IMG/VR virus record: IMGVR_UViG_2529293147_000015
DNA length: 49,846 nt
Strand: one strand, 5' to 3'
DNA from: a virus
Taxonomy: Duplodnaviria > Heunggongvirae > Uroviricota > Caudoviricetes
In this document: in pieces, positions 1-44,306 of the stretch
Position numbering within the stretch: position 1 is the first letter of the stretch
Layout: every line of letters begins with the position of its first letter
The notes under the pieces: generated by a model
What the model saw: only the letters and a program-made list of their open reading frames with translations
Database searches by the model: none
Told to the model about the DNA's origin: nothing
Made by a program: the position numbers and the translations under genes

Positions 1-585
1 TTATTCCATAACAGGGGTTGCAGGCCACTCAATATCCGGTGCAGTTGATGTATCAACACGGTTCAGCAACACCCGATACTTTTTCCAGGCTTCCAGCAAT
101 GAGGTTTCTTCCTCCGTTGCGATTTCCAGATCTACAGCATCCTGAAGTGGCGCAATATGCTCACTGGCTACCTGCATCAGGCTGTTTTTTGTTTCTTCCG
201 CCTCTCGGATCCGGAACAGTTTTTCTGCTTCTGCATCTTTCACCCAGGCTGTGCCGTTCCACTTCTGAAACTCCCCTTCCGGCGATAACCAGGTAACATT
301 TTCCGGTAACGGACCGAGTTCAGAAATAAATAACGCGTCCCCTGACGCTACGTCATAAACCGTTTTACCCCGATGGTCTTCAACGAGATGCCACGATGCC
401 TCATCACTGTTGAAAACAGCCACGAAGCCTGCCGGAATATCTGGCGGTGCAATATCGGTACTGTTTGCTGGCAGACCTGTATGAGGCGGAATATATGCAT
501 CACCTTCACCAATAAATTCATTAGTTCCGGCCAGCAGATTATAAATTTTTATGGTCCGTGGTTGTTCACTCATTCTGAATGCCAT
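1..585 (-). CDS. tfa: Tail fibre assembly protein Tfa
   Basis: 194-aa [27 protein letters not shown]... ending ...[11 protein letters not shown], matching lambda Tfa as I remember it; stop codon at window positions 1-3. Confidence 0.85.
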
Positions 586-27455: not shown

Positions 27456-27532
27456 TGGCGCGTTGTACTGGATTCGAACCAGTGACCGATTGCTTAGAAG
27501 GCAATTGCTCTGTCCGGCTGAGCTAACAACGC
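27456..27532 (-). tRNA. tRNA-Arg (anticodon TCT)
   Basis: Clean cloverleaf: acceptor GCGTTGT/ACAACGC, anticodon loop CTTCTAA, T-loop TTCGAAT, 3' CCA. Confidence 0.85.
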
Positions 27533-27629: not shown

Positions 27630-27705
27630 TGGTGGCCCTTGCTGGATTTGAACCAGCGACCTGGCGATTATGAGTCGCTCGCTCTCACCACTGAGCTAAA
27701 GGGCC
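27630..27705 (-). tRNA. tRNA-Ile2 (anticodon CAT, ileX/ileZ-like)
   Basis: GGCCCTTTAGCTCAGTGGTGAGAGC...CTCATAA...GGTTCAAATCCAGCAAGGGCCACCA. Confidence 0.85.
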
Positions 27706-31747: not shown

Positions 31748-32149
31748 TTACCTCCAGATGCGTTGCTGGAATGTGCGGGACGGACGCGGTGGGCGTTCGG
31801 AATAAGGGAGTCTGACGTAGATTATCCAGTGACGATAATCGAGGCTGAGGGCTTTCCTAAACTCATACCCACGTCTGCGGTAGTTATGAATCAGCCATTC
31901 GGCCTGTTCTTCAGTGCAGGGGTCGTGCTGATACCAGTCATATTTGAATGCGTGCGAACACCGCCCGTGCCTGCTGGCACGAACGGTATCAGAATTGTGT
32001 AATTTGGTCTTGTGCGCCATCTGTTTTCTCTGCTGGCGCAGCAGGTGCCAGTTGTTCAGGCTGGCATGTGGATTGTAAACCAGGATGCTCAGAAAAAACA
32101 AAACCCGCCGAAGCGGGTTAAGTGCGGGTGCATTGAGGATGCCTGACAC
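31748..32149 (-). CDS. Hypothetical nin-region protein (start uncertain)
   Basis: ORF with Cys/His-rich basic C-terminal part; 1-nt gap to the downstream gene. Confidence 0.4.
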   Translation of the reverse strand: MSGILNAPALNPLRRVLFFLSILVYNPHASLNNWHLLRQQRKQMAHKTKLHNSDTVRASRHGRCSHAFKYDWYQHDPCTEEQAEWLIHNYRRRGYEFRKALSLDYRHWIIYVRLPYSERPPRPSRTFQQRIWR

Positions 32150-32193
32150 ATCAGAGGTGGCGAGGGATTTCTCCCCCGCCAGGTCTCTTACTC

Positions 32194-32343
32194 CTCAGGT
32201 TCGTAAGCTGTGAAGACAGCGACCTCCGTCTGGCCGGTTCGGATTCGTACCTCGCAGAGGTCTTTCCTCGTTACCAGTGCCGTCACTATGACGGTTAAAC
32301 AGATGACGATCAGGGCGATTAACATCGCCTTTCGCTGCTTCAT
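32194..32343 (-). pseudogene. hok/gef-family type I toxin, C-terminus frameshifted by a 1-nt insertion
   Basis: Reads MKQRKAMLIALIVICLTVIVTALVTRKDLCEVRIRTGQTEV then RCLHSLRT*; removing one C near 32220 restores the canonical ...VAVFTAYEPEE* ending; small upstream ORF (32340..32399) whose stop overlaps the hok ATG. Confidence 0.6.
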
Positions 32344-33062
32344 AGCCCGCTTCTCCTTGACCTTTCGGTCCGTAAGAGGCTAATCTCTATGTGTCGCATA
32401 GATATGGCCTCAGATTAATGTTAAGCGTCTTGCAGGACGCGTAATGTTAACTGGGGCTTTTCTCTATCTGCCTTTGGTGTTCATGCCTGAGGCAGATAGC
32501 CTCAAGCACCCGCAGCAATTCTACTTAACTCCCGTCACCTCGCCAATATAAAATCAATCAGAAAGGCGATCCATAAGAACAACAGCAAGACAATAAATTG
32601 CCATTACAGCCGCAATAGCTAGCGCACATTTGAGAACCAGCACGACAACCTCCTGTATTGGACGTACACCAGTTCTGATAAATATGAGGCTGTCTCATCA
32701 TTGATTCAATATAACTATTGGGTATAGTTTCTGTGATTTTGTTCTGTAGAAATGGAACACAACAACCAGTCACCACCAGCACTTCTTTAAATACGCCAAG
32801 TCCGACGCAAGCTAACCTTCTAGTCCGCTTTGAGCGAGGAGCGGACCAAACCCGGCCAACTGACTCTTAAAGGGGCCGCAGGAATTTTTCGTCTGAACTT
32901 TCGAAGCTCCTCTCCCTGAAGACAGAAAACTTCTGTGTGCTGTGGGAATATTGAATCTTTGCATTAGATATAAATAATTTTATCCCGCCTGAAGTTTACA
33001 TTATTTTATTTATCTGTTTTTCTAAATCAGACTGCACTCCTTACTTAAATCAGGAGCCAGTC

Positions 33063-34262
33063 ATGCCATTTGTTATTTATGTGTTTACTATCAGTGCCTT
33101 TGCGCTCGGACTCGCGGAATTTGTCCCCATTGGGCTGACAGACGTTATGGCTCAGGGGTTGTGTGTGGGTGTGGAGCAGACCGGGGCAGCGGTTACAACC
33201 TATGCACTGGGGGCAACGTTCGCGGCACCCGTACTGTCTGCGCTGACAGCAAGCTGGAGCCGGAAAAATGTAATGCTTACAACTGCCGTTGTGTTTACTG
33301 CCGGTAGTCTGGCGGCCGCGTTTGCAGCCACATTACCTCAGCTCCTGTTAGCGCGGTTCATTGCTGGTCTGGGACACGGCCTGTTTCTGGCTGCGGCATC
33401 CAGTACCGCAGCTCGTCTTGCTGGACCGGGTAAAGCAGGCAGAGCGGTGGCTGTGGTATTTGGTGGCTTTACTCTGGCGATGGCAATCGGCGTACCGCTG
33501 AGTACATGGTTGGGGGGGGTGGTCTCATGGCGTCCAGTTCTCGGCGCTATTGCCGCTTTTGGCGCGTTCGGATTCCTTGGACTGTTGTTCGGTATGAAAG
33601 ATCCCGTACGCAGCGTGCCCGGTGAACATAGTGACTCAGCAATGCAGAATATCGGCATGCTGTTTAACCGTAAGTTGCTGGCCGGCGCGCTGGTTACGGT
33701 GCTGGCGTATGCAGGCTCGTTTACGGCTTACACCTTTATCGCACCTATTCTGACGCAGGTGACAGGGGTTACCGGAGCAACGGTGAGTCTGTTTATGCTG
33801 GTTTACGGTATTACAGCTGCGGTAGGTAATATTCTTGGTGGGAAACTTACCGACAGCATGGGGGTTAATCGTGCCAATATACTCATCATTAGCGGCATTG
33901 TTGTTGTCGTGCTTGGTATGTGGCTGCTGTCATCCTCACCGGTGAGCATGGGCATTCTGGTTGCGCTGCTGGGTATGGTGACATTTGCCGCAGTGCCGGC
34001 ACTGCAGGCCCGTCTGATTGGTGTCGCTGAGCAACATGCTCCTCATGCGCATGGTGTTGCTGCCGGCCTGAATATTGCGGGCTTCAACTCAGGTATAGCG
34101 CTGGGATCAGTACTGGGCAGCATTACTATAAGCCACGCCGGTATCGTGTATACCGGTATCAGCGGTGCGATTGTTTCTCTGCTCGGCCTGCTGTTGCTGC
34201 TTGCACAAATCCGTCGCAGCCACAGTCGTAAATTTCAACAGGTTAAAATCGTAGGCCAGTAA
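33063..34262 (+). CDS. MFS transporter (12-TM efflux type)
   Basis: 399-aa polytopic membrane protein with characteristic Gly-rich TM helices. Confidence 0.8.
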   Translation: MPFVIYVFTISAFALGLAEFVPIGLTDVMAQGLCVGVEQTGAAVTTYALGATFAAPVLSALTASWSRKNVMLTTAVVFTAGSLAAAFAATLPQLLLARFIAGLGHGLFLAAASSTAARLAGPGKAGRAVAVVFGGFTLAMAIGVPLSTWLGGVVSWRPVLGAIAAFGAFGFLGLLFGMKDPVRSVPGEHSDSAMQNIGMLFNRKLLAGALVTVLAYAGSFTAYTFIAPILTQVTGVTGATVSLFMLVYGITAAVGNILGGKLTDSMGVNRANILIISGIVVVVLGMWLLSSSPVSMGILVALLGMVTFAAVPALQARLIGVAEQHAPHAHGVAAGLNIAGFNSGIALGSVLGSITISHAGIVYTGISGAIVSLLGLLLLLAQIRRSHSRKFQQVKIVGQ

Positions 34263-34273
34263 AGGGAGGTTAT

Positions 34274-34966
34274 ATGCTTACCCGTGAAAATATGCTTAAT
34301 GGCACATTTGTCAGGGTGCATGAAGCGCTGCTCCCGGCGAATATGCTCTGGGACGCTGAAAAAATACGCGCATCAATGAACTCTACTCTGGAGGAGCGCC
34401 CGACGGGTGCTCCTTTCTGGATATTTGCCTACGGGTCATTGATGTGGAATCCCGTGCTGGCAATTGAAGAAATGCAACGGGCCCGTCTGAAAGGATGGCA
34501 GCGCAGTTTCTGCATTCGTTTGATATCCGGACGAGCGACTCCTGATGTCCCCGGCAGGATGTTATCGCTCGACGAAGGTGGAATTACCGAAGGGATTGCG
34601 TTCAGACTGCCGGAATCGACTCTTATTAATGAGCTGGAAATTGTCTGGACGCGCGAGATGATAACCGGTCTTTACCGTCCGGTCTGGGCAGACGTTTCGC
34701 TAGGAAACGGTGAGGAAATTCAGGCGCTGGCTTTCGTATCAGACAGACTGCATCCGCATTATGAACAGGACAATCTTACAGCGACCGTAGCATTGAGCAT
34801 CGCATCTGCCCGTGGAGACATTGGCACGAATGCAGATTATGTATGGAAACTGCAGGCCACTCTGGGTGCGTTGGGAATACGGGATGATTACGTGAGTGAA
34901 CTGGCCCTTGCTCTGCATGAGGCTCCCTGTAACGATAAACTTCATCAGCGAGGCGCTTCACTATGA
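34274..34966 (+). CDS. ChaC-like gamma-glutamylcyclotransferase family protein
   Basis: FWIFAYGSLMWNP motif and ...LWTREMITG... Confidence 0.75.
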   Translation: MLTRENMLNGTFVRVHEALLPANMLWDAEKIRASMNSTLEERPTGAPFWIFAYGSLMWNPVLAIEEMQRARLKGWQRSFCIRLISGRATPDVPGRMLSLDEGGITEGIAFRLPESTLINELEIVWTREMITGLYRPVWADVSLGNGEEIQALAFVSDRLHPHYEQDNLTATVALSIASARGDIGTNADYVWKLQATLGALGIRDDYVSELALALHEAPCNDKLHQRGASL

Positions 34967-35844
34967 GCCATCTGAGCCATCTGCGAACGTTTCTTGAGGC
35001 CTATCGCTCTGGCTCCTTTTCAAAGGCGGCAGAACTACTGGGCATCACTCAGCCCGCGGCGTCACAGCATATCCAGTCTCTTGAGACTCTGGTTGGTAAG
35101 CGTCTGTTTATCAGGCAGGCCAGAGGCGTGACGGCAACCGAAGCTGCGGATGAGCTTGCCCGCTCAGTTTCACCCTTCATTGATGGTCTGGAAGAAAAGC
35201 TGTCCTCTTTCCGGTCAGGCTCTGTACACGGGGGAACAATTAATCTGGCAGGACCGCCAGATTTTATTCATTCCCGGCTTGGGACAGTAATGGCTCCACT
35301 AATGAAGGAGGGGTATCGCTTACGCTTTCATACCGGCAATAAGCAACGTATTTATTCCCTTTTGCATGACGGGAGCGCCGATCTCGCTGTTACCGCATCT
35401 ATGCCTGATGACCGTCTGTACGGCTATGCACATCTACTGACTGAACGCATGCTCCTTGTTCATGCTCCCGCCATGTCAGAGATCATCGGATCAGAACCTG
35501 GTGCTGAAACGCTTGCCTCATTACCGCTGATTGCTTATGACGAAGAGTTGCCACTGATTAGAGCGCTCTGGGCCTCCATGTTTCAGAGAGCCCCTGAGAT
35601 GCAGGCTACATTCACCATTCCGGATTTACGTATTATCCGCGACTTGGTCTGTGACGGCCACGGGTGGACAGTGCTGCCGGATTATCACTGTGACAATGAC
35701 CTGAAAAGTGGTCGCCTGATTTCAGTGACCCCTGCAGACCTCGCTCCGACTAATCATCTTTATCTGGTCTGGAACAAAAGGACGGCTAATAACAGCCGAA
35801 CCGCCTATGTTCGGGATTACATTCTTAAAACGTTTCCGCGTTGA
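34963..35844 (+). CDS. LysR-family transcriptional regulator
   Basis: N-terminal HTH (LRTFLEAYRSGSFSKAAELLGITQPAASQHIQSLE) plus substrate-binding domain; start overlaps the ChaC-like stop. Confidence 0.85.
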   Translation: MSHLSHLRTFLEAYRSGSFSKAAELLGITQPAASQHIQSLETLVGKRLFIRQARGVTATEAADELARSVSPFIDGLEEKLSSFRSGSVHGGTINLAGPPDFIHSRLGTVMAPLMKEGYRLRFHTGNKQRIYSLLHDGSADLAVTASMPDDRLYGYAHLLTERMLLVHAPAMSEIIGSEPGAETLASLPLIAYDEELPLIRALWASMFQRAPEMQATFTIPDLRIIRDLVCDGHGWTVLPDYHCDNDLKSGRLISVTPADLAPTNHLYLVWNKRTANNSRTAYVRDYILKTFPR

Positions 35845-35888
35845 TGTTTGAAACGGATGATTGGCGATGCGTATCATAAGTTACGTAT

Positions 35889-35918
35889 GTCCGCTTCTGG
35901 CACAAAGCAGACGCCCAC
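35889..35918. repeat. Direct repeat copy 1 (GTCCGCTTCTGGCACAAAGCAGACGCCCAC)
   Basis: ~30-bp imperfect direct repeat of 39562..39591; the pair brackets the DUF2254 and BCCT genes. Confidence 0.5.
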
Positions 35919-35974
35919 TCTCACGCGAATGCTTTGCCCTTGACTTGCCAACAACCGTATCGCTTGCTCCGCAA

Positions 35975-37267
35975 CTATGGTTTTTTATTAGAACCTTCGC
36001 CACTAAATAAATTATAATAAATTGATTTTATTAGATATCTGTCAGAATCTATATGGTCAGCACGAGTAGCATGCTCTAATGTTTCAAATGCTAGGGTTTG
36101 TGCGGCTTCAGCAAAAATTCCAGGCCAACCCTTACTCAGCATCGACAGTCCTTTAAGTACCCTTATCTGAATTTCCCTCATACTGGCACCATCGCGCGCA
36201 ACAGGTGAGAAAAAGTCTTCAAGTAGATCGTTATTCTGAAGTGGTGCAACATGTACAGAAGGATATTTCACTTCTATTTCATCAGATTTATTCTGCGCGT
36301 AAGCGGAAAGTATACGTACACCTCTGCCAATGACATCAATGGCGGTTCCAGGATCGTTCACTGCGGGGGAAAGGGCTCGGCAGGCTATTTCGGCCATGAC
36401 GCTAAGACAAAATCGGGGGTCCTGAGCAAATGAACGTACATCCGAGACAATAATCGTCTCAAGTAAATCGGTGCTGATTGATGACTCCTGGCCCTGACTC
36501 AGGTACAAAACTGGCGTGGACGGATGTATGAAACTGCCCGGCTGCGCCACGAGGTATACATGACGGGGATCATTGGTCAGCAGCTTGCTGAGTTTCACCA
36601 TATCAACATATTCAACATAGCCAATCTTTTTCGGATAAACTGCAACCGTTCCTTTCGGCTGTTCATTGTTCTCAAGCCAAGGATATCCGCCGAGACAGGG
36701 ATTTCTTGCTCTCGCAATAAATGTTTCGATGGCCGCCTGTTCTACTTTTGCCGTTGTCTCACCAACCCTCCCCAGAGAGGTCAAATGCTGTATCCAGCGA
36801 AGCAATGTGATGAGGATTAAGGCAATGACAACCAGTGTTACAATGAATAAAATGACTCTCCCCCTTTCTCCATAAGCTCCCATATTGAGGGCAATAATCC
36901 CTACCAGACTGAAGAGAAAAGAACCGATGAAGGTGGCCAGTACATTTTGTGTGGTGACGTCTTCAACAACTAAACGAGTAGCTCTGGGAGTCACATTAGT
37001 AGTGGCTGAACCGTAGGCTGTGACCATGATGCTCAGCGAAAATGTGGTCACTGCCAGCATACTCGATGCCAGTATGTTCAGAATGTTATCGACTGCTTCC
37101 GCACCAACCTTCACGGAAACCGACTCAGGTATCATTGATTTAAAAAGAATTGATAAAAGGGCCGTTATTATTGCGACAATTGCGAATAACGTTGCCCTGA
37201 ACCATAGTTTTTTAAATGTCTGCTTCAGCATCCATTTCCAGCGTGAAATCATTCTGCATTCCCTCAT
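35975..37267 (-). CDS. DUF2254-type integral membrane protein
   Basis: 430-aa ORF with N-terminal TM bundle and soluble C-terminal domain. Confidence 0.6.
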   Translation of the reverse strand: MRECRMISRWKWMLKQTFKKLWFRATLFAIVAIITALLSILFKSMIPESVSVKVGAEAVDNILNILASSMLAVTTFSLSIMVTAYGSATTNVTPRATRLVVEDVTTQNVLATFIGSFLFSLVGIIALNMGAYGERGRVILFIVTLVVIALILITLLRWIQHLTSLGRVGETTAKVEQAAIETFIARARNPCLGGYPWLENNEQPKGTVAVYPKKIGYVEYVDMVKLSKLLTNDPRHVYLVAQPGSFIHPSTPVLYLSQGQESSISTDLLETIIVSDVRSFAQDPRFCLSVMAEIACRALSPAVNDPGTAIDVIGRGVRILSAYAQNKSDEIEVKYPSVHVAPLQNNDLLEDFFSPVARDGASMREIQIRVLKGLSMLSKGWPGIFAEAAQTLAFETLEHATRADHIDSDRYLIKSIYYNLFSGEGSNKKP

Positions 37268-37315
37268 ATTGCAGCCGGGATAAATAAATGCCGCCTCTGT
37301 GGCGGCATGTTGCTG

Positions 37316-39319
37316 TTAACGAACCAGATGCAGGAAGTGCAGGTGTTTTTCGTACTGGTCCAGTATGTCATTAATCAGCTGTTCCTGATTCCAGCCCATT
37401 ACATCATAATTTTGGCCGCCCTCTTTGAGATAGACTTCAGCGCGATAATATCGATGTTGTTCACTCTGCTGCTCATCATTATCCAGCGCAGCGAGCGCGA
37501 AGGTCGGTGAGTTATACCCGCGAAGCCTCACTTCATATATATAATTCAGCTCGTTGCCCAAATCGACTTCAAGGCGAATACGATCCTCGGCGGCGTCACT
37601 GATGTGGCTTATCGTTCCCTGCTTGTTAAGTTCCTCCTGAACCAGCGTCATGGCGGGTTGGATAATGTCGTCCATAAAACGTTTCACAAGAGAGCGCTTC
37701 GGCAAATACGCGATATTGCGTAACCTTCTCTGCCAGGGAATTGGGTTACGTGCAGCCGTAGGAGCAATAGTCGCCATGCTAAGGCTTTCACGCTTGGTCA
37801 AATCCCGACGCAGGGCTTTTAACAGTCCGTATATGGATATTAATAAGATAACTGAGAAGGGCAATGCACTCGCTATCGTTACGGTTTGCAACGCACTCAG
37901 CCCCCCTGCGATCAGCAGGGCAATAGCAACAACGCCCATGAGCGATGCCCAGAAAATTCGCTGCCAGACGGGCGTGTTTGCCACCCCACCTGATGCCAGA
38001 GTATCCACAACCATTGCCCCCGAATCAGCAGACGTTACAAAGAAGACGATGACCATCGCCATTGCAATGAATGACAGCACGGAAGAGAACGGGAAATGCT
38101 CCAGGAAATTAAACAGGGCAAGCGCAACATCCTGCTGAACGGTATTGGCGAGGTCAGTGGCGCCCTGGTTCATGATGAGATAGATGGCGCTGTTTCCAAA
38201 CACCGTCATCCACATGAGCGTAAAGCCGGCGGGAACAAACAACACGCCAGTCACGAACTCACGAATTGTCCTGCCGCGGGAAACGCGTGCAATGAACATA
38301 CCTACAAACGGCGACCATGAAAGCCACCATCCCCAGTATAATAATGTCCAGCCCCCCAGCCAGTTGCTCGACTTGGGTTCATACGCGTAAAGGTTGAACG
38401 TTTTACTCACCAGTTCCGACAGATAACCACCCGTATTTTCCACAAATGACTTCAGCAGAAGCACAGTGGGACCCAGGCACAAGACCAGCGCCAGGAGCAA
38501 CACCGCCAGGCCCAGATTAAGCTCAGACAGGATGCGTATTCCCTTGTCCAGGCCGGACACCACCGAAATCGTCGCTAACCCCGTGATGACCACGATCAAA
38601 ATGACCTGTACCGTTTCATTGATGGGCACGCCGAAAAGATGGTTCAAACCGGCATTCACCTGCAATACACCGTAACCCAGTGATGTTGCAACGCCAAAGA
38701 CAGTGCCTATCACGGCGAAGATATCAACCGCGTGGCCTATAGGCCCGTAAATGCGATCGCCGATAATGGGATAGAGCGCAGAACGCAGCGTTAAAGGCAG
38801 ACCGTGACGGTAACTGAAAAAGGCCAGAATCAGCGCCACGATGGCATAAATTGCCCATGCGTGCAGACCCCAGTGGAAGAACGTCAGGCGCATGGCTTCC
38901 TTCGCTGCCGCAACGGTCTCTGGAGTGCCGACAGGTGGCGAAAGATAATGCATCACAGGTTCGGCAACGCCAAAGAACATCAGGCCGATCCCCATCCCTG
39001 CCGAAAAAAGCATCGCGAACCAGGAGTGGTAGCTGAAATCAGGCTGCGCATGGTCTGGGCCCAGCTTTATATCACCGTAACGTGAGAGTCCAAGGAACGT
39101 GACGCTCAGTAAAATCAGGGCCACAGCAAGTATGTAGAACCAGCTGGCATTCGTGAAGATTTGTTGCTGAAGTAGTTTAAAATTTTTGTCGGCGACATCC
39201 GGGAATACGGCGGCAAAGGCGACAAGAAGGAAAATTAGCAAAGCAGATGTAAAGAATACCGCTTTGTTAATCTGGCTTGTAGACTTCTTTGGGGTTGTAT
39301 CATTTTCACTCATAATCAT
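37316..39319 (-). CDS. BCCT-family (betaine/carnitine/choline) transporter
   Basis: 667 aa; BCCT signature around WTLLYWGWWLSWSPFVGMFIARVSRGRTIREF. Confidence 0.85.
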   Translation of the reverse strand: MIMSENDTTPKKSTSQINKAVFFTSALLIFLLVAFAAVFPDVADKNFKLLQQQIFTNASWFYILAVALILLSVTFLGLSRYGDIKLGPDHAQPDFSYHSWFAMLFSAGMGIGLMFFGVAEPVMHYLSPPVGTPETVAAAKEAMRLTFFHWGLHAWAIYAIVALILAFFSYRHGLPLTLRSALYPIIGDRIYGPIGHAVDIFAVIGTVFGVATSLGYGVLQVNAGLNHLFGVPINETVQVILIVVITGLATISVVSGLDKGIRILSELNLGLAVLLLALVLCLGPTVLLLKSFVENTGGYLSELVSKTFNLYAYEPKSSNWLGGWTLLYWGWWLSWSPFVGMFIARVSRGRTIREFVTGVLFVPAGFTLMWMTVFGNSAIYLIMNQGATDLANTVQQDVALALFNFLEHFPFSSVLSFIAMAMVIVFFVTSADSGAMVVDTLASGGVANTPVWQRIFWASLMGVVAIALLIAGGLSALQTVTIASALPFSVILLISIYGLLKALRRDLTKRESLSMATIAPTAARNPIPWQRRLRNIAYLPKRSLVKRFMDDIIQPAMTLVQEELNKQGTISHISDAAEDRIRLEVDLGNELNYIYEVRLRGYNSPTFALAALDNDEQQSEQHRYYRAEVYLKEGGQNYDVMGWNQEQLINDILDQYEKHLHFLHLVR

Positions 39320-43829: not shown

Positions 43830-44306
43830 TGACAGTTTACTGAAAGGATATTTCCCTGAAAAGTCAGACCATAACGCGAAAGCGCACGGCGAGGTAGCTG
43901 GTTCATAGATAGCCTGTCGTTAAATTTTCGTCGACCGTGCGCTTCCGGTTGTGGCAATCCGCGAAATGGCGCGGCGGTAAGTATGGCGGGGTTATTCCTT
44001 CCCCCGTTGAGGACACCGGGTTGTCAGGTTGACCATACGCTTAAGTGACAACCCCGCTGCAACGCCCTCTGTTATCAATTTTCTGGTGACGTTTGGCGGT
44101 ATCAGTTTTACTCCGTGACTGCTCTGCCGCCCTTTTTAAAGTGAATTTTGTGATGTGGTGAATGCGGCTGAGCGCACGCGGAACAGTTAAAACCAAAAAC
44201 AGTGTTATGGGTGGATTCTCTGTATCCGGCGTTAATTGTTAACTGGTTAACGTCACCTGGAGGCACCAGGCACCGCATCACAAAATTCATTGTTGAGGAC
44301 GCGATA

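What the first reader, a model, noticed from the sequence alone, without database searches (positions are those of the whole stretch)
32194..32399. hok-family toxin with single-nucleotide insertion, plus overlapping upstream leader ORF
A sub-threshold ORF missing from the ORF track encodes a Hok/Gef-type N-terminus through ...RIRTGQTEV, then an extra C near 32220 replaces the canonical VAVFTAYEPEE* tail with RCLHSLRT*. A short upstream ORF ends with a TGA overlapping the hok ATG (mok-like coupling). Either an inactivated type I toxin or an indel error.
Basis: partly seen in the sequence, partly recalled or inferred. Interest (0 to 1): 0.5.

Follow-up and report, generated by a model that had tools for sequence, protein, structure and literature searches.

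The report
Intact prophage hok/mok/sok toxin–antitoxin locus

Summary
The claimed single-base insertion does not exist. The window reads GAGGTCGCTGTC at 32215–32226 (−). The ORF 32188..32343 (−) encodes a complete 51-aa Hok with the canonical VAVFTAYEPEE* tail; by my reading it is 50/51 identical to E. coli K-12 HokD/RelF (Pfam HOK_GEF 1.2e-23).

The short upstream ORF is real: 19 codons, 32399..32340, with its UGA overlapping the hok AUG. It is the mok leader in a minority allele (mok–hok start spacing 56 nt; 12 of 120 related viral contigs, against 57 nt in 92 and 58 nt in 7). All such alleles keep an intact hok.

The rest of the hok/sok machinery is present:
- a hok promoter;
- a 5′ tac element that pairs with a 3′ fbi element in the predicted full-length mRNA fold (z = −10);
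- predicted tac/ucb and mok-SD/dcb refolding after 3′ trimming;
- a terminator;
- an antisense Sok gene (32393..32467, +) with a TTGACC-18-TAATCT promoter.

The Rfam sok model scores 104.8 bits. The locus lies in a Qin/Rac-like prophage, between a cargo island and the DUF968–RusA–Q genes.

Verdict: already known, low interest.

The parts
32518..32546 (-). hok/mok mRNA promoter: -35 TTGGCG (32546-32541), 17-nt spacer, -10 TAGAAT (32523-32518)
   Evidence: Promoter scan, 9 of 12 matches. The -10 ends 6 nt before the start of the Rfam model at 32511. TAGAAT is conserved across the family.
32095..32511 (-). Predicted full-length hok mRNA (about 417 nt)
   Evidence: The 5' end is taken from the Rfam model start and the promoter; the 3' end from the intrinsic terminator. 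MFE -179.4 kcal/mol, z = -10.1 against shuffles.
32500..32511 (-). tac (translational activator element), GGGUGCUUGAGG, at the mRNA 5' end
   Evidence: Pairs with fbi in the full-length fold, with ucb in the truncated fold, and with 32493-32483 in the nascent 30-nt fold. Invariant in 105 family loci.
32453..32459 (-). ucb (anti-SD of mok), AAGCCCC
   Evidence: Its 3' part (GCC, 32457-32455) pairs with the mok SD region in the full-length fold, and the whole box pairs with tac in the truncated fold. This is the arrangement described for R1 in PMC9841398.
32407..32411 (-). mok Shine-Dalgarno, GAGGC
   Evidence: Lies 7 nt upstream of the mok AUG. R1 has a GAGG mok SD (PMC9841398). Sequestered in the full-length fold and paired with dcb in the truncated fold.
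32340..32399 (-). mok leader ORF, short allele: 19 codons plus a UGA that overlaps the hok AUG (AUGA)
   Evidence: The same allele occurs in E. coli ChlosBP-23-1 (L001) and in 12 of 120 viral contigs; E. albertii (L128) carries the allele's 26-nt signature.
32376..32380 (-). dcb (downstream complementary box), GCCUC
   Evidence: Pairs with the mok SD in the truncated-mRNA fold.
32352..32358 (-). hok Shine-Dalgarno, AAGGAGA
   Evidence: Lies 8 nt upstream of the hok AUG. Partly paired (32355-32352 with 32377-32374) in the full-length fold and unpaired in the truncated fold.
32188..32343 (-). hok toxin CDS, 51 aa, intact: MKQRKAMLIALIVICLTVIVTALVTRKDLCEVRIRTGQTEVAVFTAYEPEE*
   Evidence: Pfam HOK_GEF 82.9 bits against a cut-off of 22. 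PHROG 251 'MokW-like host killing', 2.7e-32. Differs from K-12 HokD only at Q4R by direct comparison of the sequences.
32126..32138 (-). fbi (fold-back inhibition element), CCUCAAUGCACCC
   Evidence: Forms 12 bp with tac, with one bulged U, in the MFE of the full-length RNA. Family variants change only the bulged base or are C-to-U changes opposite G.
32093..32119 (-). Intrinsic terminator of hok mRNA (stem 32119-32102 plus a U tract)
   Evidence: Terminator scan: AACCCGCTTCGGCGGGTT followed by TTGTTTTTTC.
32357..32386 (+). Sok promoter: -35 TTGACC (32357-32362), 18-nt spacer, -10 TAATCT (32381-32386). It overlaps the hok SD on the opposite strand.
   Evidence: Read from the sequence (printout). 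It scores 8 of 12, below the scan threshold, so one search did not list it. Identical in all 56-nt and most 58-nt family loci. It aligns with the region upstream of the annotated K-12 sokC start.
32393..32467 (+). Predicted Sok antisense RNA (about 75 nt): a single-stranded 5' tail complementary to the mok start region, a long hairpin, then GGGGCUUUUCUCU
   Evidence: The ends of annotated K-12 sokC map to 32393 and 32467 by pairwise alignment. Fold -31.9 kcal/mol, z = -5.7.

Best explanation
This is an intact hok/mok/sok type I toxin-antitoxin cassette of the HokD/HokW group, carried in the early-right ('nin'-equivalent) region of a Qin/Rac-like lambdoid prophage.

Shown from sequence and prediction:
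- A sigma-70-like promoter would drive a roughly 417-nt mRNA.
- The mRNA's 5' tac element pairs with a 3' fbi element, closing the molecule and burying the mok ribosome-binding site.
- After removal of the 3' end, the predicted fold switches to tac/ucb and mok-SD/dcb stems and frees the hok SD.
- A 19-codon mok ORF runs across the hok SD and stops at a UGA overlapping the hok AUG.
- A convergent promoter on the plus strand would give a roughly 75-nt Sok RNA complementary to the mok start region.

Inferred from the R1 paradigm (PMC9841398; Thisted & Gerdes 1992, as cited there):
- Short-lived Sok pairs with the processed mRNA, blocks mok translation and hence hok translation, and the duplex is cut by RNase III.
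- When transcription of the locus stops (for example prophage loss or an infecting phage shutting off host transcription), Sok decays and the stable mRNA pool is trimmed and refolds.
- Ribosomes then translate mok and reinitiate at hok, and the 51-aa membrane peptide depolarises the cell.

The short mok is a natural allele expected to work, because in R1 mok translation is needed only as far as the hok initiation region.
For: - Intact ORF and no extra C.
- Hok family membership: Pfam 1.2e-23 and PHROG 251 at 2.7e-32. Homologous loci at up to 96.7% identity are annotated hokD in RefSeq E. coli genomes, and as MokW/hok/mok in phages.
- Rfam sok (RF01794): 104.8 bits against a gathering score of 59 over the whole leader.
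- RNA folds: tac-fbi closure with z = -10.1; truncated fold with tac/ucb and SD/dcb stems; nascent metastable tac hairpin. All three states match the model summarised in PMC9841398.
- Sok: the annotated K-12 sokC maps to 32393..32467 and the promoter aligns; hairpin z = -5.7.
- mok: a 19-codon ORF with an SD. Loci with this allele all keep a 51-aa hok, tac and the Sok promoter, and nearly all keep a recognisable fbi, in at least three different upstream contexts. R1 mutagenesis shows that stops after the hok start are neutral and that translation up to the hok SD is required.
- Prophage context.
Against: - Nothing here was measured. The promoters, RNA ends, 3' processing, Sok-dependent repression and toxicity are all inferred.
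- The Sok promoter matches only 8 of 12 consensus positions and was not picked up by the scan.
- tac and fbi barely vary in this family, so there is no true compensatory covariation.
- According to the 2026 preprint, several chromosomal hok loci tested in E. coli did not mediate post-segregational killing, so an intact sequence does not guarantee activity.
- The NCBIfam Hok models score below their curated cut-offs (48.4 against 73).
- The mok stop lies at the hok start rather than downstream of it. This exact configuration was not among the R1 mutants described in the paper I read.
Confidence: 0.88

Rival explanations
1. One reading: hok carries a 1-nt insertion near 32220 that replaces the C-terminus with RCLHSLRT*, so it is either a dead toxin gene or an assembly indel.
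For: The third reading frame across hok does end in ...GGRCLHSLRT* at 32197..32195. Truncated hok alleles do exist elsewhere in the family, in contigs L036, L099 and L105.
Against: The required string is absent. The hok frame is open to the canonical stop. The alignment shows no gap in the CDS relative to seven homologues, including K-12 hokD.
Confidence: 0.01
2. The sequence is intact but the cassette is functionally crippled. The 2-nt shorter mok region puts the leader in a frame that stops at the hok start, which uncouples or weakens hok translation. The locus would then be a silent remnant, like several K-12 chromosomal hok loci.
For: In R1, premature stops in mok upstream of the hok start abolish toxicity. 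The 56-nt allele is the minority, 12 of 120. Some chromosomal hok loci failed post-segregational-killing tests.
Against: Here ribosomes translate through the whole hok SD and terminate on a UGA overlapping the AUG; by general knowledge that is the classic geometry for termination-reinitiation. R1 data say translation up to the hok SD is what matters. All loci with this allele retain an intact hok, tac and the Sok promoter, and nearly all a recognisable fbi, across several flanking contexts and in two species. That is not what decay of a dead locus predicts.
Confidence: 0.09
3. The 2-nt difference in the mok region is itself a sequencing or assembly artefact in this window.
For: It is a small indel.
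Against: The identical allele occurs in a complete E. coli genome (L001) and in 12 viral contigs. The E. albertii type-strain contig carries the same 26-nt signature.
Confidence: 0.01

Closest known systems
hokD (relF) of the E. coli K-12 Qin cryptic prophage
   Same: The toxin is 50/51 identical (Q4R only). The CDS, 3' UTR, fbi and terminator align. Both have prophage neighbours of the same kind, with DUF968/YdfU and an antiterminator Q downstream.
   Different: Homology of K-12 hokD to this locus begins only at the hok SD. Upstream of that it has relBE instead of the promoter, tac, ucb, mok and sok. The window carries the complete regulatory leader, so it is the full cassette of which K-12 hokD is a truncated copy.
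hokC/mokC/sokC (gef) of E. coli K-12
   Same: The leader architecture is the same and alignable, including tac, ucb, mok SD and the Sok promoter. The annotated sokC maps cleanly onto 32393..32467.
   Different: mokC is in frame with hokC (57-nt spacing, 69 aa), whereas here spacing is 56 nt and mok is 19 codons. The Sok hairpin here is 18 nt longer. In K-12 an IS186 lies about 20 nt downstream of the hokC stop and homology to the window's 3' UTR, including fbi, is lost; here the 3' UTR is intact.
hok/mok/sok of plasmid R1 (the paradigm)
   Same: Every named element is present: tac, fbi, ucb, dcb, the mok SD (GAGG), 19 mok codons before the hok start, antisense Sok, and the three predicted folding states.
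   Different: R1 Mok is 70 aa; from memory it is in the +1 frame and ends near the hok stop. Here mok stops at the hok AUG. The Hok proteins are distant: HokW, of the same group, is 44% identical to R1 Hok according to PMC8621323. This locus is prophage-borne rather than plasmid-borne.
hokW-sokW of Sakai prophage Sp5 (PMC8621323)
   Same: A 51-aa Hok in a lambdoid prophage. Toxicity and Sok-promoter-dependent neutralisation were shown experimentally for that locus, and it depends on RNase III and Hfq. The window's Hok falls in PHROG 251, 'MokW-like host killing'.
   Different: I did not align it directly to Sp5 here. The Stx-phage relatives I examined have the in-frame 57-nt mok and a shorter Sok hairpin. 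The reported role in phage release is untested for this prophage.

Membership tests
Hok/Gef toxin family (Pfam PF01848) | Sequence match above the family's curated threshold | tested here: met
   82.9 bits against a cut-off of 22, E = 1.2e-23, covering profile positions 1-42 of 42. PHROG 251 at 2.7e-32.
Hok/Gef toxin family (Pfam PF01848) | A peptide of about 50 aa with an N-terminal hydrophobic helix, the conserved Cys in '...KDLCE...', and a complete C-terminal tail | tested here: met
   51 aa, LIALIVICLTVIVTALV helix, C30, and tail VAVFTAYEPEE* identical to K-12 HokD.
Hok/Gef toxin family (Pfam PF01848) | Membrane depolarisation and toxicity on expression | not testable with these tools
   Shown for the related HokW (PMC8621323) but not for this protein.
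NCBIfam Hok models (NF007279 subfamily, NF007290 HokA equivalog) | Score above the curated cut-off | tested here: not met
   48.4 against 73, and 38.2 against 89. These models represent other Hok subgroups; the library returned no HokD-specific model. RefSeq nevertheless names the homologues HokD.
hok/sok type I TA locus (R1 paradigm; Rfam RF01794) | Leader RNA matching the covariance model | tested here: met
   104.8 bits against a gathering score of 59, full model 1-157, on the hok-sense strand, ending at the hok AUG.
hok/sok type I TA locus (R1 paradigm; Rfam RF01794) | A mok leader ORF with its own SD whose translation reaches the hok initiation region | tested here: met
   GAGGC SD and a 19-codon ORF 32399..32340 whose UGA overlaps the hok AUG. 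It is shorter than the canonical 68-70 codons, but it satisfies the functional requirement defined in R1.
hok/sok type I TA locus (R1 paradigm; Rfam RF01794) | A cis-antisense Sok RNA with its own promoter, complementary to the mok translation-initiation region | tested here: inconclusive
   The TTGACC-18-TAATCT promoter matches 8 of 12 and fell below the scan threshold. However, it is conserved, aligns to annotated K-12 sokC, and the predicted RNA folds into a hairpin plus U-rich tail with z = -5.7. No transcript data.
hok/sok type I TA locus (R1 paradigm; Rfam RF01794) | Long-range 5' tac / 3' fbi pairing that closes the full-length mRNA | tested here: met
   12 bp in the MFE, whole-RNA z = -10.1. 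This is prediction only. The family shows no compensatory changes, only wobble-compatible ones.
hok/sok type I TA locus (R1 paradigm; Rfam RF01794) | Refolding of the 3'-truncated mRNA to tac/ucb and mok-SD/dcb stems, and a metastable 5' hairpin in the nascent RNA | tested here: met
   The MFE of 32511..32138 and of the first 30 nt reproduce both states. These are predictions; the 3' processing site is assumed.
hok/sok type I TA locus (R1 paradigm; Rfam RF01794) | RNase III cleavage of the Sok-mRNA duplex, slow 3' exonucleolytic processing, and post-segregational killing | not testable with these tools
   These require experiments.

The most novel reading that the evidence does not exclude
Two modest possibilities remain open. 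(1) Loci more than 90% identical to each other use all three mok reading frames: 57 nt in frame, 58 nt in the +1 frame, and 56 nt ending in AUGA. The window's short-mok allele would then be a natural termination-reinitiation version of the coupling. That is a ready-made natural experiment showing that the Mok peptide is irrelevant, and the allele might have different coupling efficiency or Sok sensitivity. I found no description of this allele series in the papers available to me. (2) A conserved, mostly unannotated 29-34-aa membrane-peptide gene abuts the hok promoter in many prophages and could be a functional partner or a second small toxin.
Probability: 0.3. Interest if true: 0.3.

Novelty: already known. 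Interest (0 to 1): 0.08.

Why it matters
It matters mainly as a correction. The locus should be annotated as an intact hok (HokD/HokW-type) gene with a mok leader and a sok antisense RNA, not as a pseudogene or an assembly error. Small type I toxin genes fall below common ORF-length thresholds and overlap other open frames, so a slip between frames when reading by eye is easy. The family comparison also gives a small practical lesson for annotation: mok cannot be predicted by homology of its peptide, because indels of 1-2 nt just after its start codon move it among all three frames while hok and the RNA elements stay constant.

Tried and rejected
- **Sok promoter scan.** The consensus scan over 31900-32800 did not list a Sok promoter. 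I located it by reading the sequence and by alignment instead.
- **tac-fbi covariation.** I looked across 105 family loci. The elements are nearly invariant, so the test is uninformative beyond showing wobble-compatible changes.
- **Distant relatives.** A distant-mode search of plasmids was meant to bring in R1/F-type relatives for covariation. It returned almost only the same hokD-like group or short fragments, so no direct alignment to R1 was made. Statements about R1 sequence details rest on PMC9841398 and on my memory.
- **Literature on mok frames.** Two searches for a description of mok frame variation found none. The 2026 preprint states that Mok prediction is unresolved.
- **The 29-aa ORF.** Pfam, PHROGs and NCBIfam gave nothing.
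- **Weak Rfam hits.** Sub-threshold hits in the region (isrK 27 bits, ceN48, rsmX, and a plus-strand 'sok' hit of 19.9 bits) are treated as chance.
- **The 133-aa ORF.** The ORF 31748..32149, which appears to overlap the hok 3' UTR, is rejected as an over-extended call. Homologues are annotated at 92 aa, and PHROG 1212 covers residues 25-90 of the version starting at ATG 32020.
- **Expensive searches.** I did not run the protein-database, structure-prediction or metagenome searches, because the answer did not depend on them.

Full report
**1. Observation**

I read the minus strand of 31800-32800 and listed all ORFs of at least 20 aa. An ORF at 32188..32343 (−) translates to MKQRKAMLIALIVICLTVIVTALVTRKDLCEVRIRTGQTEVAVFTAYEPEE*.

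That string occurs nowhere in the window. The sequence is GAGGTCGCTGTC, found once at 32215..32226.

I aligned the locus with K-12 hokD, K-12 hokC, two E. coli prophage loci and three phage records. The hok CDS has no gap relative to any of the hokD-type sequences.

In phage Rac that same frame is the annotated 68-aa Mok, ending ...PDGGRCLHSLRT.

ATG 32399 opens a 19-codon ORF (MRHIEISLLRTERSRRSGL*) whose TGA (32342..32340) overlaps the hok ATG as ATGA.

**2. What it is**

- The peptide matches Pfam HOK_GEF at 82.9 bits (cut-off 22) and PHROG 251, "MokW-like host killing", at 2.7e-32.
- By direct comparison of the sequences, it differs from K-12 HokD/RelF only at Q4R.
- The Rfam "sok" model (RF01794) matches 32341..32511 on the minus strand at 104.8 bits (gathering score 59), over its full length. 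This model lies on the hok-sense strand and ends at the hok AUG. It therefore recognises the hok mRNA leader, and the strand of the hit is not the strand of the Sok gene.
- The 511-nt locus has full-length matches (at least 80% of the query) in 3,818 of 5,426 complete E. coli genomes. The best is 96.7% identical, and the listed hits are annotated hokD. It also matches 102 phage records, annotated MokW, hok, mok or gef.

**3. Context**

The window is a Qin/Rac-like lambdoid prophage. Its gene order parallels the annotated prophage of E. coli strain 3R at 97.4% identity. The order is: integrase, exonuclease, dicB region (with a DicF RNA at 44081..44132), the YdaT and DUF977 replication-region genes, a cargo island, hok, a 90-aa ORF, DUF968, RusA, antiterminator Q, tRNAs, and then lysis and morphogenesis genes. 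The cargo island comprises BCCT transporter, DUF2254, LysR, gamma-glutamylcyclotransferase and MFS transporter genes.

In other prophages the slot just upstream of hok holds different cargo: polyketide cyclase plus LysR in L001, an acetyltransferase in phage Evi, and Paa/AdfO in an Stx2a phage.

K-12 hokD is a truncated copy. Its homology to this locus starts only at the hok SD, and relBE lies upstream of it.

**4. Anatomy**

*Promoter and transcript ends.* A promoter (TTGGCG-17-TAGAAT, 32546..32518) precedes the model start at 32511. An intrinsic terminator lies at 32119..32102 with a U tract.

*Full-length mRNA.* The predicted 417-nt RNA folds at −179.4 kcal/mol, z = −10.1. Its first 12 nt (tac, GGGUGCUUGAGG) pair with CCUCAAUGCACCC at 32138..32126 (fbi). 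The mok SD region pairs with ucb, and the hok SD is partly paired.

*Truncated mRNA.* Removing the 3′ end at fbi changes the MFE. tac now pairs with AAGC/CCC at 32459..32453 (ucb), the mok SD GAGGC pairs with GCCUC at 32380..32376 (dcb), and the hok SD is free.

*Nascent RNA.* The first 30 nt fold into a hairpin that sequesters tac.

These are the three states described for R1 hok mRNA: a metastable nascent form, a closed full-length form and an open truncated form (PMC9841398).

*Sok.* On the plus strand, TTGACC (32357..32362), 18 nt, then TAATCT (32381..32386) precede a G at 32393. Aligning the annotated K-12 sokC places its ends at 32393 and 32467. That 75-nt RNA has a free 5′ tail complementary to the mok start, a long hairpin and a GGGGCUUUUCUCU tail, and folds with z = −5.7. 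The hairpin is 18 nt longer than in sokC.

**5. The mok allele**

The real indel variation in this family lies just after the mok start codon, not in hok.

| mok–hok start spacing | Mok product | Contigs |
|---|---|---|
| 57 nt | in frame with hok, 70 aa, an N-terminally extended Hok as in K-12 mokC | 92, plus 3 with a truncated hok |
| 56 nt | 19 codons, ending in AUGA (the window's type) | 12 |
| 58 nt | +1 frame, 68 aa, as in phage Rac and, from memory, R1 | 7 |

These counts come; six contigs could not be classified.

In the subset with enough flanking sequence, all 56-nt loci have an intact 51-aa hok, tac and the identical Sok promoter. All but two have a recognisable fbi. They occur behind at least three different upstream sequences. 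The allele is also present in the complete genome of E. coli ChlosBP-23-1, and its 26-nt signature occurs in an E. albertii type-strain contig. It is therefore real and persistent, not an artefact.

R1 mutagenesis shows three relevant things: the mok start codon is required, stops upstream of the hok start abolish toxicity, and stops after the hok start are neutral. [quoted passage not shown] A mok that crosses the hok SD and terminates on the hok AUG satisfies this requirement, so I infer that coupling is retained. This exact geometry has not been tested in what I could read.

**6. Mechanism**

The shown and inferred steps are set out in the best explanation. In short:
- Unstable Sok represses mok, and hence hok, on the processed mRNA.
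- Loss of transcription lets Sok decay while the stable, closed full-length mRNA is slowly trimmed, refolds and is translated.
- Hok then kills by membrane depolarisation.

For a prophage the likely payoffs are retention of the element, exclusion of superinfecting phage, or a contribution to lysis and release. A role in release was shown for hokW-sokW of Sp5 (PMC8621323). Hok genes are reported to be about four-fold enriched in prophages (bioRxiv 10.1101/2025.08.07.668861). Which role applies to this prophage is unknown.

**7. Comparison and novelty**

The locus meets every sequence-level defining feature of the hok/sok family that I could test (see the membership table). The one soft point is the Sok promoter, which matches 8 of 12 consensus positions.

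The NCBIfam Hok models score below their cut-offs. Those models represent other Hok subgroups, and RefSeq still names the homologues HokD.

This is an already-known kind of element in a known place. The only mildly new points are the allele series of mok frames and a conserved small ORF next door.

**8. Verdict**

The finding as stated, a frameshifted hok, is an artefact of reading by eye. What is there is an ordinary, intact, well-understood toxin–antitoxin cassette. Interest 0.08.

Noticed in passing
window 32554..32643 (-): A 29-aa hydrophobic ORF (GTG start; AGGAGG 5 nt upstream; V/MLVLKCALAIAAVMAIYCLAVVLMDRLSD) ends about 8 nt before the hok -35. It is conserved next to hok in more than 20 viral contigs. 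A 54%-identical, 34-aa form (MSDDISLAMEGALAV[I/V]AVVGVYCLVVFLMDRLGN, with its own AAGGAGG SD) occurs in 15 others whose flanks are unrelated; in the one contig I checked (L022) it also lies upstream of hok. Variable columns by codon position are 14/9/20. It has no Pfam, PHROG or NCBIfam family. It is unannotated in three of four phage records and in the two RefSeq loci I examined (L001, L003). It is plausibly a real small membrane protein linked to hok.
   Followed up: partly
loci L036, L099, L105 (IMG/VR contigs): Truncated hok alleles do exist in this family, with premature ends after ...RIRTG...RIRT and ...RKDL.
   Followed up: no
window 33063..39319: A five-gene cargo island sits between the prophage replication genes and hok: MFS transporter, gamma-glutamylcyclotransferase, LysR regulator, DUF2254 and a BCCT transporter. 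The same slot holds different cargo in related prophages: polyketide cyclase plus LysR, an acetyltransferase, or Paa/AdfO. The region upstream of hok looks like a moron insertion hot spot.
   Followed up: partly
window 32205..32202 (-): Hok codon Tyr47 reads UAC followed by G, giving UACG. From my own knowledge, UACG is the motif for TadA A-to-I editing, which recodes Tyr to Cys. The 2026 preprint reports such editing for hokB and a similar phenomenon for hokC/D/E mRNAs. In a local fold the motif lies in a 9-nt hairpin loop.
   Followed up: no
window 31748..32149 (-): The mechanical 133-aa ORF that overlaps the hok terminator and 3' UTR is over-extended from a GTG start. Homologues are annotated at 92 aa, and PHROG 1212 (unknown function) covers residues 25-90 of the version starting at ATG 32020.
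   Followed up: partly
window 32341..32511 (-): Rfam RF01794 is named 'sok antitoxin' but is built on the hok-sense leader and ends at the hok AUG. The strand of a hit is therefore opposite to the real Sok gene, which is a trap for automated annotation.
   Followed up: yes
window 32098..32179 (-): A sub-threshold isrK-like hit (27 bits against a gathering score of 50, E = 0.003) covers the hok 3' UTR and terminator. From memory, IsrK is a Salmonella prophage sRNA. I treated the hit as chance.
   Followed up: no
window 44..242 (-), 44081..44132 (+), 27459..27532 and 27633..27705 (-): Other RNA genes in the window score above the Rfam gathering thresholds: IS009 (229 bits), DicF (76.7 bits, in the dicB region of the prophage), and two tRNAs downstream of the Q antiterminator.
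   Followed up: no
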